This document shows positions 55,563-60,266 of a stretch of 64,000 bases of DNA, one piece after another. Origin of the DNA: a virus; the IMG/VR virus record IMGVR_UViG_3300048837_001089, positions 5,277-69,276 of that record, one strand, 5' to 3'. A program made the position numbers and the translations under genes. Position 1 is the first letter of the stretch. Every line of letters begins with the position of its first letter. The notes under the pieces are model-generated. The model made no database searches. It was not told the origin of the DNA and saw nothing but the letters and a program-made list of their open reading frames with translations.

Positions 55563-55727
55563 GTTGCCCGCCGCGCTTCCCGCATGGGTTGCGAGGTAGG
55601 GATGGCAGCGGGCAATGAGGATGCAGACCGGCGCTGGGTGGATGGGAAGCGGAGCAATCATGGCCGGTCTGCAAGCTGTCGGGGCGGCGCGTACCCACTG
55701 GGTTTCGTTGCCCGATTGGCCGCCCCG
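55563..55727 (-). repeat. Dual-spacer stem-loop (TIGR-like) sub-array D, 3 units
   Basis: Units 55563-55616, 55622-55673, 55680-55727; + strand pattern stem-(G/C)GCG-N9-TGGGNNNCG-N9-TGGC(C/A)-stem. Confidence 0.88.
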
Positions 55728-55733
55728 TGCCGG

Positions 55734-56372
55734 TCACACCGGCAATTCGTCTACGTCGGCGCGCAGCTTCGCGGCCTGCGCAAGCGTCACGACCTTTGAC
55801 ACAATCTGTTCGGCGCGCGTGCCCTTTGCGCGAATCAACCTCAGCCACGACATCTCGCGGTACTCGCTGCCGATCCGGCCAGCCTTCTCCGCGCATATTG
55901 CGTCAAGCTGCTCCATCGTCGCGTCGCCCAGCCGGACAGTCCTGCCGTTGCCCAAGCCGTACCGAATATCGAATAGCGTCTCCTGGCTGGCGCGGCTGCC
56001 GCTTGCGTAGCTGGCACGTACCGTGGCCGTAAAGCCGGCCCCTATTTTCTGTTTGGCTTTTTCGGAAAGTTTTGCCGCGAGGCCGACCTTGGCTGCTCCG
56101 TCCGACTCCGCTGCGGCGAGGATGCGCTTGTTGTCACTCAGTCGGACGTGGGCAATCATGCTTTTTGCCTGTTCGAGCAACATGTAGTCGCGGAGAGATT
56201 CGCGGGCCAGCGCTTCGCGGTAGAGTGCCGTTGCCGCCTTGGCTTCATCGCCATTGCATGCGTCGAGTATACGGCGTGCTGTCGATGCGGGCGTCTCGTC
56301 ATGCGCGCCCGTAACGCGCTGGCGACGCGGCTTGAAGGCTTTGGTTGTTCTGGTTTCTGGTGAGATGAACAT
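55734..56372 (-). CDS. Hypothetical protein bracketed by two sub-arrays
   Basis: GGAG RBS, 212 aa; abuts array units on both sides. Confidence 0.75.
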   Translation of the reverse strand: MFISPETRTTKAFKPRRQRVTGAHDETPASTARRILDACNGDEAKAATALYREALARESLRDYMLLEQAKSMIAHVRLSDNKRILAAAESDGAAKVGLAAKLSEKAKQKIGAGFTATVRASYASGSRASQETLFDIRYGLGNGRTVRLGDATMEQLDAICAEKAGRIGSEYREMSWLRLIRAKGTRAEQIVSKVVTLAQAAKLRADVDELPV

Positions 56373-56399
56373 TTCAGTGCTCCGTTGGGTTTTGGGGTA

Positions 56400-56693
56400 A
56401 GCGACGCGGCGCCCGTAGATTGGGGTTCGCCCGCCGTATGGCCGCATCGCTATGGGTTGCCTGACCGGGCGATCGAGTACCGGGCTGCGTCACCAGTTTG
56501 GCCCGGTCAGGCGTTGGTTAAGAGGGCGGCGGCTTCATCATGAGTTTCGCAAGCAGCATGGCCGCCCTCTATTGGTTACCCCGCCGCCGCGCGTCCTCGG
56601 CCGGACTGCGGTCCTCCTCTGGCAGCGACGGGAATTGGTGTGGCGGGGCGGCGGATTCATGATGGGTTTCGCCAAAGTGGTGGCCGCCCCGCC
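56400..56693 (-). repeat. Dual-spacer stem-loop (TIGR-like) sub-array C, 5 units
   Basis: Units 56400-56451, 56459-56512, 56521-56570, 56580-56632 (degenerate), 56642-56693; period about 60 bp. Confidence 0.9.
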
Positions 56694-56698
56694 TTCGG

Positions 56699-57937
56699 CT
56701 ACGCCATAGAGCGTCGCCATTCCGAAAACAGGTCTGCGACCATGCACTTGCCGAGATATCGCAGGGCGCGGTTGGTGGCGTGCTTCTTGTACGATTCCTT
56801 GTGCTCGCCCTTGGCGTTAATCGCAGTCGTGACAGGCAGGCCCAGCTTGTCCGATTCCAGCCTTACGCGCTTCGCGAAAATGCGCTGCTGCGGCGTCAGG
56901 TCAGGATTGGCGTCAACGTCCTCGCCAAAGGCGGGCCGCCACTTGCCCATGCCGAGAATCATCGGCCCGGTCGCGTTCCACAGGACGCTTCGCCGCTTGC
57001 GGTTGTAGCCCTCGGTGACCCACGTGTCCTCCGTGGCTCCCGCACCTGGGTTGCCCTGCCTGTGGCCGTCGATAACCGCCACCCCAAGCCGCTTCCACAA
57101 GGCGGACACGGACTTGAAGTCGCCGACTACAAAAACCTCGCCGGCCTTGCCGAATTCATTATCAGTGCGGTTGACGCTGGTGGCTTCCGCGATGATGGTA
57201 GCGAGTGACACGTCGCCCAGGCCCTTCGTCTTTTTGCAGAAGTCGATGATGGGAAGTTTTCGAAGCTCGCGGATCATAACCTTCGCTCGGTGCTGGATTT
57301 CCGCCTCAAGCGGCTCCTGCGCCCGCAGGTACGGTGCGATGGCCTCGTTGAGTTCTGACGCCGGGTCCGCCAAGGCCTTCTTGTATTCGGCGTCTACAAA
57401 CTTTTCGGCGGCTTTTGCTTCGGGCGAATCGCGGTCGCCGAACCTCTCGATGCCCAGAAAGCCGCGCACAATCGCCTTACACTGGTTTGTCAGCTTTGTG
57501 TTCGCAACGATGGCGCGCTGCCGTAGACGATGCGCGTGCCGGATGGCGAGGATTGCCGGCAGGTGCGCCGGGTTGGTGCGGAAGACGGGGGCGTCCTCAC
57601 CTTGGGTTTCGCAGATGTTATGGCCGCCGTCTTCCGTTGGGGAACCAGCGTGCGGCGGTTCGGCAGTGGGTTTCGCCCGCTTGATGGCCGCATCGCTGGT
57701 TTGGGTGTTGCCGACCGCGTCTGGATAATGGGTATCGACCGGTGACTGGCAGTCGGCAATAAGTGGGCTGGTGGCGTAGTCCGGGTGGGTTTCGTCGCGC
57801 CCTTGGCCGCCAGCTTTGGTGTTGCCCTTGGCGGCTGCCCCGGAGGCGCCGTCGCGGGCTTTTCGTATGCGCACTCTCGGCGCTGAATCTGTCATCGCCG
57901 CGAGTGCGGCGGGGTTCATGGGTACGTCGTCAAACAT
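56699..57937 (-). CDS. Nuclease-less IS110/Nop-domain RNA-binding protein (TasA-like)
   Basis: HRLRQ...KLTNQ coiled coil, KGLGDVSLATIIAE, DFKSVSALWKRLG, YNRKRRSVLW, HATNRALRY; no DEDD RuvC domain; AGGAGA RBS. Confidence 0.8.
   Translation of the reverse strand: MFDDVPMNPAALAAMTDSAPRVRIRKARDGASGAAAKGNTKAGGQGRDETHPDYATSPLIADCQSPVDTHYPDAVGNTQTSDAAIKRAKPTAEPPHAGSPTEDGGHNICETQGEDAPVFRTNPAHLPAILAIRHAHRLRQRAIVANTKLTNQCKAIVRGFLGIERFGDRDSPEAKAAEKFVDAEYKKALADPASELNEAIAPYLRAQEPLEAEIQHRAKVMIRELRKLPIIDFCKKTKGLGDVSLATIIAEATSVNRTDNEFGKAGEVFVVGDFKSVSALWKRLGVAVIDGHRQGNPGAGATEDTWVTEGYNRKRRSVLWNATGPMILGMGKWRPAFGEDVDANPDLTPQQRIFAKRVRLESDKLGLPVTTAINAKGEHKESYKKHATNRALRYLGKCMVADLFSEWRRSMA
57579..57815 (-). repeat. 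Dual-spacer stem-loop sub-array B, 4 units inside the tas-like ORF
   Basis: Units 57579-57636, 57643-57701, 57707-57760, 57766-57815. Confidence 0.9.
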
Positions 57938-57958
57938 GCGGTGTCTCCTGTTGTGGTG

Positions 57959-58144
57959 GCGCAAGCGGCGCCCCTAGAATGGTTTTCGACGGTACGGTGG
58001 CCGCTTGCGTTTAGGGAGCCCGGTCGGCGGTGGACCAATGGATTGCGCTTGTTTTGTGGCCGGCCGGGCTGTTGGTGGATTTGGGCGGGTTGGGGGTGAT
58101 GGCGCGCATTTCATGGGTCACGCGGCGGCGCTGGCCATCACCCC
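57959..58144 (-). repeat. Dual-spacer stem-loop sub-array A, 3 units
   Basis: Units 57959-58010, 58017-58070, 58093-58144. Confidence 0.9.
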
Positions 58145-58305: not shown

Positions 58306-58369
58306 GTTATATGCCTAACGCAGATTATTGTCAACTGCCTAACGCAGATTTATATGTGCGATACGCAGA
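58306..58369 (-). promoter_or_regulatory. Left early promoter with three repressor operators
   Basis: - strand TTGACA-N17-TATAAC (58334-58306); operators at 58310-58324, 58334-58348 and 58355-58369 resembling TCTGCGTWACGCAGA. Confidence 0.8.
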
Positions 58370-58371
58370 CC

Positions 58372-58989
58372 ATGATTAGGAACAACGAAGAAATAGGCGT
58401 CAGGCTGCGAGAAGCGCGCGAGGCTGCGGGGTTTAAGACCGCAAAGGATGCAGCGCAGTCTATGGGTGTCCCCTACGGAACCTACTCACTGCACGAAACT
58501 GGCGCGCGAGGCATCGCCCGCGCGGTTGAGCTGTACGCACGGCGTTTACACGTTTCTGTAGATTGGCTGCTGAGGGGAATCGGCCCTGGCCCCCGGAACA
58601 AGAAAGCCGCTGCGGTTGGCATACCGTTGCTTTCTTGGGTTAGTGCTGGGGCTATGAGCCGGGATGATGTTGGTGACGAAGCCCTCGGCGTGCTGGATAT
58701 AGGGCACCTGCCTGACGGCGACTGGATCGCCCTTCGTGTCGAGGGCGACTCGATGGACCGAATATCTCCTCCAGAATCGGTTATTCTGGTGAACCGTAAA
58801 GATCGGCGCCTCGTCGCAAACGCCTGCTATGTGGTGTCCGACATTAGCGGCAATGCCACATATAAAAGGTATCGGCCCAATCCACCGAGGTTTGAGCCTG
58901 TATCCACCAACCCCGTACACGAGCCGATTTATCCAGACAACGAAGTCCCGGTTGTCGGGCGTGTGCGCCGCACCATCTTGGACATGTGA
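58372..58989 (+). CDS. cI: CI-like repressor (HTH + S24 peptidase)
   Basis: RLREARE HTH, VDWLL, VSAG cleavage site, GDSM, YKR. Confidence 0.93.
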   Translation: MIRNNEEIGVRLREAREAAGFKTAKDAAQSMGVPYGTYSLHETGARGIARAVELYARRLHVSVDWLLRGIGPGPRNKKAAAVGIPLLSWVSAGAMSRDDVGDEALGVLDIGHLPDGDWIALRVEGDSMDRISPPESVILVNRKDRRLVANACYVVSDISGNATYKRYRPNPPRFEPVSTNPVHEPIYPDNEVPVVGRVRRTILDM

Positions 58990-59001
58990 TTCGACGAAAA
59001 G

Positions 59002-59071
59002 TCTGCGTTAAGCGAGTAACTTGCGTAACGCAGATTTTTTTGTTGACTTTTGTATCTGCGTTACGCATAAT
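59002..59071 (+). promoter_or_regulatory. Right early promoter with three repressor operators
   Basis: TTGACT-N17-CATAAT (59043-59071); operators at 59002-59016, 59020-59034 and 59055-59069. Confidence 0.8.
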
Positions 59072-59105
59072 CCCCCTATCACCACTCGATAGGGGACTTC
59101 CCACC

Positions 59106-60266
59106 ATGCCCGCCAGACGCACCACCCAGCCGGACCAAGACACCAACACGCCCACCACACCGCCCACCACACCCGACGCCCCGCCCATCGTCGCCTATAA
59201 GGGCTTCAATCGCGACCTCACATGCTCGCCTGACGGCAAGCCGTTTCAGTATGAACTCGGAAAGACCTACGACAATGGCGGCACGCCGGTCGTGCGGTGT
59301 GGTGAAGGGGCTTTCCATTGGGTGGAAATGCCACTTGATGCCTTCAGCTATTACGGACCGGCGTCGAGTCGGTATGCGACGGTCGAGCCTGCAGGCGAGA
59401 TTGCCCGCGAGGAAAATAGCGATACGAAGGGCGCGTCCAGTATCCTGACCGTCAAGGTCGATATCTCGATCGGTGAATTGACGCGACGTGCAGTGTCGTG
59501 GGTTGCCGATATGGCTCGCAAGCAGGGCAACGGACAGCATACGACCGGCAACCGCGCCCATGCGGCCAGCACCGGGGACTACGCCCATGCGGCCAGCACC
59601 GGCAACCGCGCCCATGCGGCCAGCACCGGGGATGGCGCCCATGCGGCCAGCACCGGGGACTACGCCCATGCGGCCAGCACCGGGGACTACGCCCATGCGG
59701 CCAGCACCGGGGACTACGCCCATGCGGCCACCGCCGGCAACCGCGCCCATGCGGCCAGCACCGGGGACTACGCCCATGCGGCCAGCACCGGCTACTGCGC
59801 CCATGCGGCCAGCACCGGGGACTACGCCCATGCGGCCAGCACCGGCTACTGCGCCCATGCGGCCAGCACCGGGGATGGCGCCCATGCGGCCAGCACCGGC
59901 AACCGCGCCCATGCGGCCAGCACCGGGGATGGCGCCCATGCGGCCAGCACCGGGGACTACGCCCATGCGGCCAGCACCGGCAACCGCGCCCATGCGGCCA
60001 GCACCGGGGATGGCGCCCATGCGGCCAGCACCGGCAACCGCGCCCATGCGGCCAGCACCGGGGATGGCGCCGTGGCTGTGGCAATCGGTTTCGGTTCAAC
60101 AGCCACCGCGGGCAAAGGCGGTGCCATCAGCTTGGCTGCATACGACGAAACGGTGTGGCCGCCGAAGCTCGTGGCCGTGCGGTCATCGATGGTCGGCCAG
60201 AACGGTATTGAGGCCGGAAAGAAGTATCGCCTCACAGTCTCTGGCAAATTTGAGGAGGTGCTCTGA
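59106..60266 (+). CDS. Early phage protein with YKGF/FQY N-domain and 9-aa tandem repeats
   Basis: AYKGFNRDLTC, FQYELGKTY, PLDAFSYY; STGxxAHAA repeats; C-terminal VGQNGIEAGKKYRL. Confidence 0.85.
   Translation: MPARRTTQPDQDTNTPTTPPTTPDAPPIVAYKGFNRDLTCSPDGKPFQYELGKTYDNGGTPVVRCGEGAFHWVEMPLDAFSYYGPASSRYATVEPAGEIAREENSDTKGASSILTVKVDISIGELTRRAVSWVADMARKQGNGQHTTGNRAHAASTGDYAHAASTGNRAHAASTGDGAHAASTGDYAHAASTGDYAHAASTGDYAHAATAGNRAHAASTGDYAHAASTGYCAHAASTGDYAHAASTGYCAHAASTGDGAHAASTGNRAHAASTGDGAHAASTGDYAHAASTGNRAHAASTGDGAHAASTGNRAHAASTGDGAVAVAIGFGSTATAGKGGAISLAAYDETVWPPKLVAVRSSMVGQNGIEAGKKYRLTVSGKFEEVL
59541..60071 (+). repeat. 27-bp coding tandem repeat, 19 full copies plus one partial
   Basis: agcaccgg(c/g)-NNNNNN-gcccatgcggcc; variable dipeptide NR, DY, DG or YC. 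Confidence 0.95.

What the first reader, a model, noticed from the sequence alone, without database searches (positions are those of the whole stretch)
57579..57937. Four guide units embedded in-frame within the effector's own coding sequence
Seen: the clearest RBS and ATG (AGGAGA, ATG at 57937) lie upstream of sub-array B; the frame stays open through all four units (the loop repeat reads ETH, DTH and ETQ in three of them), and there is no in-frame ATG or GTG between the last unit and the conserved domain. Inference: dual-coding RNA in which guide maturation would cut the tas mRNA (negative feedback), spacer change is constrained to avoid stops, and the array occupies the place of the missing nuclease domain.
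Basis: partly seen in the sequence, partly recalled or inferred. Interest (0 to 1): 0.86.

Follow-up and report, generated by a model that had tools for sequence, protein, structure and literature searches.

The report
Guide units inside the tasA gene
Four guide-RNA hairpins of a phage TIGR-Tas system lie in frame inside the start of the gene for the protein that uses them; a 2026 preprint already describes this layout for the family, so this is a clean new example and not a new kind of thing.

Summary
The ORF 56699-57937 (-) encodes a nuclease-less Tas protein (TasA). A profile of its family hits the TasR structure 9MTY, and the ten best fold matches are TasH and TasR chains. A covariance model built only from units of other loci finds 14 stem-loop TIGR units in the window, all on the minus strand between 55565 and 58143. 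Four of them lie inside the ORF, at residues ~42-119.

Translation very probably starts upstream of the four units. A short N-terminal peptide (NPAxIAA type) is conserved at codon level in relatives with and without intragenic units. It was always in frame and stop-free with the Nop core, although the distance between them varies from 90 to 405 nt. The window has no ATG, GTG or TTG between the last unit and the invariant core residues.

Against a relative with 46% protein identity, the spacer columns are 26% identical and the scaffold between them is 85% identical, with no indel. The units are therefore maintained as RNA elements and are not relics.

The feedback idea is untested. "Replaces the nuclease domain" is only a match of position.

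Xu et al. (bioRxiv, Sept 2026) already report stem-loop tigRNAs inside tas coding sequences, in frame, in disordered regions, with the same coupling hypothesis. This is a new member of a known kind.

The parts
56699..57937 (-). tasA coding sequence, 412 aa from the ATG at 57937 (stop included). The Nop and coiled-coil core is residues ~120-412 (56702-57580).
   Evidence: Profile of alignment A1 against PDB 9MTY (TasR): E 2.8e-8. Foldseek top 10 are TasH and TasR chains, prob 1.00. Pfam gives 0 hits and no nuclease domain.
57944..57949 (-). Shine-Dalgarno-like AGGAGA, six bases before the ATG at 57937.
   Evidence: Read. Relatives have GAGGAGA- or AGGA-type sequences before their ATG.
57896..57916 (-). 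Conserved N-terminal peptide NPAALAA (residues 8-14), upstream of the intragenic units.
   Evidence: Present in 75 of 92 homologous proteins. In frame with the core in 26 of 37 loci. Codon pattern: Pro is CCN in 29 of 29 with all four third bases; Ser is coded by both AGY and TCN.
57766..57815 (-). Intragenic unit B1. Read as AGGQGRDETHPDYATS; interior starts at codon position 1.
   Evidence: R1 33.0 bits, E 3e-5. Fold z-score only -1.16.
57709..57758 (-). Intragenic unit B2. Stem extends to 57706-57761; read as LIADCQSPVDTHYPDAVGN.
   Evidence: R1 36.2 bits, E 5.4e-6; fold z-score -4.31.
57647..57697 (-). Intragenic unit B3. Read in another phase as DAAIKRAKPTAEPP.
   Evidence: R1 32.9 bits, E 3.1e-5; fold z-score -3.33.
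57583..57632 (-). Intragenic unit B4. Stem extends to 57579-57636; read as TEDGGHNICETQGEDAPVF. Ends at about residue 119, just before the first core helix.
   Evidence: R1 36.1 bits, E 5.8e-6; fold z-score -3.96; helix 123-160 in the AF2 model.
57960..58143 (-). Three leader units upstream of the ATG: 58094-58143, 58019-58068 and 57960-58009.
   Evidence: R1 39.7-45.5 bits, E 8e-7 to 4e-8.
56401..56692 (-). Four units just after the tasA stop: 56643-56692, 56521-56570, 56461-56510 and 56401-56450. A weak fifth lies at 56581-56631.
   Evidence: R1 34.9-48.1 bits; the weak one 21.7 bits, E 0.012.
55565..55728 (-). Three units after the next ORF: 55679-55728, 55623-55672 and 55565-55614.
   Evidence: R1 40.1-46.0 bits.
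58306..58334 (-). Promoter-like TTGACA-17-TATAAC pointing into the array and tasA. It is overlapped by one and adjoined by a second 14-nt operator-like repeat (58312-58325 and 58336-58349).
   Evidence: Hexamers read by eye; the consensus scan did not list them. The repeats are 4 matches in the window against 0.37 expected. The divergent neighbour gene is a CI-like repressor (phrog_4, 1.1e-29).

Best explanation
This is a stem-loop TIGR-Tas locus of a temperate phage of the kind found in Rhizobiales. One leftward transcript probably carries three leader units, then tasA, then seven or eight further units. Each unit is a stem of variable sequence enclosing exactly 30 nt: CA, a 9-nt spacer A, CGNAACCCA, a 9-nt spacer B, then C.

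Four units lie inside tasA. They sit in a disordered N-terminal linker between a short conserved N-terminal peptide and the coiled-coil and Nop core. Ribosomes start at the ATG at 57937 (or the ATG at 57919) and read through the four units, so the same bases serve as guide scaffold and as linker codons.

Shown here: the protein belongs to the Tas family and has no nuclease domain. The units are real. The frame, the upstream start and the scaffold are conserved while the spacers are free to change.

Inferred: the intragenic units are cut out as tigRNAs like the others. A transcript that is cut there loses its start codon, so guide production and TasA production compete for the same transcript. 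TasA with these guides binds DNA as a repressor, as shown for other TasA proteins.
For: Tas identity. The family profile hits TasR 9MTY at E 2.8e-8. The Foldseek top 10 are TasH and TasR chains with prob 1.00, followed by IS621. Pfam finds nothing.

Units. Model R1, built from 140 units of other loci, finds 14 matches with E <= 3.1e-5, only on the minus strand between 55565 and 58143. These include the four intragenic units.

Start upstream. The N-terminal motif is present in 75 of 92 homologues, whose motif-to-core linkers range from 39 to 157 residues. A search of all three frames in 37 non-redundant loci found it in frame and stop-free with the core in 26. The only 2 out-of-frame hits were in loci that also have an in-frame hit. 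The codon pattern is that of a translated peptide.

Units within the frame elsewhere. Ten loci carry 1-4 detected units, 24 in all, between the motif and the core. Six of those 10 have no ATG, GTG or TTG after the last unit. In the other four the only such codons lie 1-22 codons before the RQ..TK anchor.

Comparison of the window with L057. Spacer columns are identical in 19 of 72 positions (26%) and scaffold columns in 137 of 161 (85%). The core is 54% identical in nt and 46% in aa. There is no indel across the four units, and one 3-nt indel just after the ATG.

Related contigs in public runs replace 165 nt by 42 and 205 nt by 82. Both changes are -123 nt, which is 41 codons.

Residues 17-114 have pLDDT below 50. 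This fits the published rule that intragenic tigRNAs map to disordered regions.
Against: There is no RNA or protein evidence. The runs that hold related sequence are probably DNA and are kept as contigs.

Codon periodicity in the N-terminal part is weak: GC by codon position is 0.67, 0.57 and 0.70, against 0.63, 0.44 and 0.78 in the core.

Between the window and L057, substitutions outside the spacers are not concentrated at third positions. Counts by codon position are 7, 11, 11 before the array and 8, 10, 6 in the scaffold. Most of the linker is therefore conserved as nucleic acid and not as peptide.

Stop-free frames through arrays do arise by chance: 10.9% of 369-nt stretches. In L003, L059, L086 and L087 the open frame also runs through units that lie upstream of the presumed start.

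The intragenic units score lowest but one among the 14 (33-36 bits against 35-48). B1 folds no better than shuffles, z -1.16.

The units used for the stem covariation count were chosen for having paired stems, so that count is partly circular.
Confidence: 0.8

Rival explanations
1. The units are all 5' leader. TasA starts after 57579 at a non-canonical codon, and the long open frame is an accident of G+C-rich DNA.
For: Open frames of 369 nt occur in 10.9% of comparable array DNA. Periodicity is weak in the N-terminal part, and substitutions against L057 show no third-position bias. CTG (57562) and ATC codons exist in frame after the last unit.
Against: The N-terminal peptide is conserved at codon level. 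It is in frame with the core in 26 of 37 loci (29 of 37 relaxed) across distances of 90-405 nt and was never found only out of frame. A Shine-Dalgarno-like sequence and an ATG lie just before it in all 10 loci with intragenic units. Short relatives without units join the same peptide directly to the core.
Confidence: 0.07
2. The four units are translated but are no longer guides. They would be relics of an array swallowed by an N-terminal extension of the gene, now serving only as a flexible linker.
For: They have the lowest but one model scores. B1 has a weak stem. No target for any spacer pair was found in the 69-kb contig beyond one match at chance level.
Against: The scaffold is 85% identical to that of L057, where the core is 54% identical in nt, while the spacers are at 26%. 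That is the pattern of maintained repeats with free spacers, not of a decaying relic or a peptide under selection. All four keep the exact 30-nt interior and the CA / CG / CCA / C marks. Intragenic tigRNAs were recovered by small-RNA sequencing for BlTasA (Xu et al.).
Confidence: 0.12

Closest known systems
Intragenic stem-loop tigRNAs in tas genes (Xu et al., bioRxiv 10.64898/2026.09.09.750476; sections 5 and 11 and searched passages read)
   Same: Stem-loop units lie inside the tas coding sequence, here at the 5' end. The reading frame is kept, the units fall in a predicted disordered region, and the effector is a nuclease-less TasA. The same hypothesis is stated there: tigRNA maturation may be linked to Tas translation.
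   Different: Their tested case (Bifidobacterium longum TasA) has the unit in the wedge loop. Here four consecutive units sit between a conserved N-terminal peptide and the core. The host clade is a set of temperate phages and prophages of Rhizobiales-type bacteria. I could not check whether this locus is in their catalogue, because TIGRSafari is not public and the supplements are closed.
Stem-loop TIGR array with TasA from a Peromyscus leucopus gut contig (Faure et al. 2025, PMC12045711, section 9 read; Asymmetric DNA targeting preprint 10.64898/2026.08.11.744272, passages read)
   Same: Nuclease-less TasA. Units are palindromic stems around two short spacers with conserved flanking nucleotides. 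There are several sub-arrays around the gene. An N-terminal loop of PlTasA is unresolved in cryo-EM.
   Different: In the text I read, that array is described as three sub-arrays separated by an intergenic region of about 450 nt, not as lying inside the gene.
TnpB omega-RNA overlapping the 3' end of tnpB (Nety et al. 2023, PMC10278001; title and start of abstract seen in a search listing only)
   Same: A guide RNA is encoded within the effector's own mRNA, and making the guide consumes that mRNA.
   Different: It is an unrelated protein family. It has one guide at the 3' end, not an array of dual-spacer units at the 5' end. There the effector itself processes the RNA, whereas the processing enzyme of stem-loop TIGR units is unknown (Xu et al.).

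Membership tests
TIGR-Tas system | Tas protein with a Nop-type RNA-binding domain and a coiled coil | tested here: met
   The family profile hits 9MTY (TasR) at E 2.8e-8. The AF2 core is confident from about residue 120 to 412. The ten best Foldseek PDB matches are TasH and TasR chains, prob 1.00.
TIGR-Tas system | Array of units, each with two short spacers set between conserved nucleotides. In the stem-loop type these are enclosed by a palindromic stem of variable sequence. | tested here: met
   14 units, each with a 30-nt interior of CA-N9-CGNAACCCA-N9-C and stems that differ from unit to unit. In 140 units from relatives, all 10 stem pairs change on both sides. That count is partly circular, because units were picked for having 8 or more pairs.
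TIGR-Tas system | [quoted passage not shown] | not testable with these tools
   No holder is on record as RNA. The runs laid are probably DNA and are contigs.
TIGR-Tas system | RNA-guided binding of DNA through both spacers | not testable with these tools
   A search for tandem spacer matches in the 69-kb contig gave one hit with 1 mismatch. My rough estimate of the chance expectation is below one hit. The host genome is not available.
TasA subtype (no nuclease) | No HNH or RuvC domain joined to the Nop core | tested here: met
   Pfam gives 0 families at E <= 1. Residues 1-7 and 17-114 have pLDDT below 50, with no folded N-terminal domain.
Intragenic tigRNA (Xu et al. 2026) | Units inside the tas reading frame without breaking it, in a disordered segment | tested here: met
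   Four units at residues ~42-119, an open frame, and an upstream start supported by comparison with relatives. pLDDT is below 50 over residues 17-114.
Intragenic tigRNA (Xu et al. 2026) | Small RNAs from the intragenic units recovered with the Tas protein | not testable with these tools
   No RNA data for this locus.

The most novel reading that the evidence does not exclude
The intragenic array is a built-in dosage switch. Each primary transcript can give either TasA (if read through) or the four internal guides (if cut), because cutting at B1-B4 separates the only start codon from the Nop core. TasA binding to its own message would then set the protein-to-guide ratio. The number of intragenic units (0 to 4 among close relatives) would tune that set point. 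The locus sits directly behind a CI-controlled early promoter, so the switch would act in the first minutes of infection or induction.
Probability: 0.3. Interest if true: 0.6.

Novelty: new member of a known kind. Interest (0 to 1): 0.4.

Why it matters
Guide RNAs that double as codons of their own effector put two constraints on the same bases. They also tie the supply of guide to the supply of protein. The idea is already in print for TIGR-Tas.

This locus adds a well-suited natural test set. Close relatives in one phage clade carry 0, 1, 2, 3 or 4 units in the same linker. A conserved N-terminal peptide marks the true start. One pair of loci shows scaffold conservation (85%) far above that of the protein core (54% nt), with spacers fully randomised and no indel. 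That makes the coupling hypothesis directly testable by recoding experiments in a cultivable host-phage group (Rhizobium and Sinorhizobium phages such as RHph_X2_25).

Tried and rejected
Pfam scan of the ORF: no family. PHROGs gave only 'transposase' families (phrog_4285, 1.1e-8), which reflects the kinship of IS110 and Nop proteins.

The simple GAAACYC motif count (24 found against 13.2 expected) was too blunt, so I replaced it with the covariance model.

Spacer targets. For all 14 units I searched the 69,276-base contig on both strands for both spacers in tandem, in four arrangements, with gaps of 0-4 and up to 2 mismatches. The only hit was one site for the first leader unit (1 mismatch, gap 2). 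My rough estimate of the chance expectation is below one hit, and that spacer is G+C-rich. I do not claim any self-target.

RNA evidence. No holder is listed as RNA. The four runs laid are marked 'probably DNA' and are contigs, so nothing can be said about expression, RNA ends or processing.

Consensus promoter scan. It did not list the TTGACA-17-TATAAC that I read by eye, because it requires T at the last position.

CUU motif of Xu et al. CTT lies at or within a few bases of the 3' stem base in 6 of 14 units. This is suggestive only, and I ran no proper control.

Phase bias of intragenic units: 9 in phase 0, 15 in phase 2, 0 in phase 1, out of 24. Many of these are orthologous positions, so I draw no conclusion.

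Supplements of the two key papers and the TIGRSafari resource were not seen. They may list this very locus or clade.

Full report
What is there. On the minus strand an ORF runs from 57964 to the stop at 56699. The first ATG is at 57937 and is preceded by AGGAGA at 57949-57944. From that ATG the product has 412 residues. Pfam finds no family. The protein has 92 relatives at E <= 1e-3 in the 90%-clustered collection, out of the 8000 candidates scored. Their lengths are 298-471 residues, and they come mostly from Rhizobiales genomes and one cultured phage, Rhizobium phage RHph_X2_25. It also has 1041 representatives at E <= 1e-3 in the 50%-clustered library.

Protein identity. A profile of 31 of these proteins (A1) hits one solved structure convincingly: 9MTY, E 2.8e-8. 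This is the TasR ribonucleoprotein of Faure et al. 2025 (accession confirmed in the paper's text). An AlphaFold2 model made with A1 has mean pLDDT 72.4. The core is confident from about residue 120 to 412, and residues 1-7 and 17-114 are below 50. The ten best Foldseek matches in the PDB are TasH and TasR chains at probability 1.00, followed by IS621 recombinases. The protein is therefore a Tas protein without a nuclease domain, that is, a TasA.

The units. A scan for hairpins with exactly 30 unpaired bases listed 39 in a 7.2-kb stretch. Thirteen of them share the interior CA-N9-CGNAACCCA-N9-C between G+C-rich stems of differing sequence, and all thirteen lie between 55564 and 58148. For an independent test I collected such units from related loci only. 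171 were found, and the first 140 were aligned without gaps (A2). I built a covariance model from them (R1) and searched the whole window with filters off. This gave 14 matches with E <= 3.1e-5, all on the minus strand between 55565 and 58143, and one weak match at 56581-56631 (E 0.012). The other 8 of the 23 listed matches have E >= 0.15.

The 14 units fall into four groups: three upstream of the ATG, four inside the ORF, four after the stop, and three after the next ORF. The four intragenic units are at 57766-57815, 57709-57758, 57647-57697 and 57583-57632. Three of the four fold far better than shuffles (z -3.3 to -4.3), and B1 does not (z -1.16). In the 140 units from relatives, every one of the ten stem pairs changes on both sides. 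Those units were selected for having at least 8 pairs, so the high percentage of paired cells is by construction.

Is the stretch translated? Openness alone says little. In array-bearing DNA upstream of the same gene in relatives, 10.9% of 369-nt stretches are stop-free in a given frame (2806 of 25839). GC by codon position is only weakly periodic in the N-terminal part.

The decisive evidence is comparative. Nearly all relatives begin with a short peptide of the type M..NPAxIAA, found in 75 of 92 proteins. This holds whether the distance to the core anchor is 39 residues or 157. To avoid relying on gene calls, I took the DNA of the close relatives: 37 non-redundant loci, counting the window. 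I anchored the core by tblastn and searched all three frames up to 1 kb upstream. The motif was found in frame and without an intervening stop in 26 of 37 loci, at distances of 90-405 nt. The only two out-of-frame hits were second hits in loci that also have the in-frame one. A relaxed pattern raises this to 29 of 37. The remaining 8 loci have other short N-termini, and one has none.

The codons of the motif behave as translated codons. Pro is CCN in 29 of 29 loci, with third bases C 14, A 8, G 5 and T 2. Ser is coded by AGY in 4 and by TCN in 4. The second base of the Ile/Leu codon is T in 29 of 29.

Ten loci, the window included, carry 1-4 detected units between this peptide and the core, 24 units in all, and every one is open in the frame used. 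For comparison, 116-122 of 179 extragenic units are open in any given phase. In all ten loci an ATG with a Shine-Dalgarno-like sequence lies a few codons before the motif. In six of the ten, the window included, there is no ATG, GTG or TTG between the last unit and the RQ..TK anchor. In the other four the only candidates lie 1-22 codons before that anchor. In the window the first canonical codon after the units is the GTG at residue 157, beyond the invariant T147, K148 and A155.

Are the intragenic units live guides or relics? Locus L057 has the same four units, and its core is 46% identical in protein and 54% in nucleotides. In the aligned N-terminal DNA the 72 spacer columns are identical in 19 (26%). 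The other columns of the array span are identical in 137 of 161 (85%), and the segment before the array in 96 of 125 (77%). There is no indel across the four units, and one 3-nt indel right after the ATG. Conserved scaffold with randomised spacers is the pattern of a maintained guide array.

Outside the spacers, the differences are not concentrated at third codon positions: 7, 11, 11 before the array and 8, 10, 6 in the scaffold. Apart from the N-terminal motif, the constraint therefore acts on the nucleic acid and not on the peptide. That fits a disordered linker whose sequence matters little.

Contigs of related phages in public runs (marked 'probably DNA') replace 165 nt of this stretch by 42, and 205 nt by 82. 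Both changes are -123 nt, or 41 codons. This is one more case of unit content changing with the frame kept, though one such case alone has a one-in-three chance.

Points against, or open. There is no RNA or protein evidence. The intragenic units have the lowest but one scores of the 14 (33-36 bits against 35-48). In four relatives the open frame also extends through units upstream of the presumed start, which shows that chance openness does occur. No spacer pair has a convincing target in the 69-kb contig. The processing enzyme of stem-loop units is unknown even in the literature (Xu et al., discussion passage).

Mechanism. The shown parts are the TasA identity, the real units, the upstream start, the frame kept, and the scaffold conserved with free spacers. 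The inferred parts are as follows. A leftward promoter-like TTGACA-17-TATAAC (58334-58306, read by eye) lies under two 14-nt operator-like repeats next to a divergent CI-like repressor gene. It would drive one transcript through the leader units, tasA and the trailing units. The units would be cut out as tigRNAs. A cut at B1-B4 would separate the start codon from the core, so protein and internal guides would compete for each transcript. TasA with its guides would bind DNA as a repressor, as shown for other TasA proteins (Xu et al., section 12 passages).

Comparison with what is known. Faure et al. 2025 described stem-loop arrays with TasA (section 9). Xu et al. [quoted passage not shown] They also recovered intragenic tigRNAs of Bifidobacterium longum TasA by small-RNA sequencing (section 11).

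What this locus adds is a clade with 0-4 units in one linker, a conserved N-terminal peptide that fixes the start, and the contrast between scaffold and spacers. I could not see the supplements or the TIGRSafari catalogue, so I cannot say whether this very locus is listed there.

Verdict. This is a new member of a known kind. Interest 0.4.

Noticed in passing
window 58306-58349 and 59022-59067: Four copies of a 14-nt operator-like word (ATCTGCGTTAGGCA, or with C at position 11) flank a CI-like repressor gene. Two of them lie over a leftward TTGACA-17-TATAAC that points into the TIGR array and tasA. The guide locus therefore sits where a cro-type early gene would be.
   Followed up: partly
window 56581-56631 (-): A weak fifteenth unit between two strong ones (R1 21.7 bits, E 0.012). 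It may be a degenerate unit.
   Followed up: no
10 loci with intragenic units (window, L001, L003, L004, L010, L057, L059, L061, L063, L076): The interiors of intragenic units start at codon position 1 (9 units) or 3 (15 units) and never at position 2 (0 of 24). Extragenic units are equally often stop-free in all three phases. Many of these units are orthologous, so the bias may be inherited.
   Followed up: partly
window, 3' stem bases of the 14 units: CTT lies at or within a few bases of the 3' stem base in 6 of 14 units. This recalls the CUU processing motif reported by Xu et al. No proper control was run.
   Followed up: partly
window 57870-57908 (-): A 17-bp hairpin, 88% complementary with a 5-nt loop, lies inside the coding stretch between the N-terminal motif and unit B1. 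It is not a TIGR unit and is only partly kept in L057.
   Followed up: no
window 57596-57802, in contigs of runs X1-X3: Related phage variants in public runs carry a shorter intragenic array (-123 nt in two different contig forms). They also have a different stretch in place of 56471-56620 in the downstream sub-array.
   Followed up: partly
window 58986-60266 (+): An ORF of 426 aa holds some twenty tandem copies of a 10-residue repeat (AHAASTGDY-like). The other two frames of the same repeats are also open.
   Followed up: no
window 55734-56447 (-): An ORF of 237 aa with no PHROG match is bracketed by two sub-arrays. All are on the same strand as tasA.
   Followed up: no
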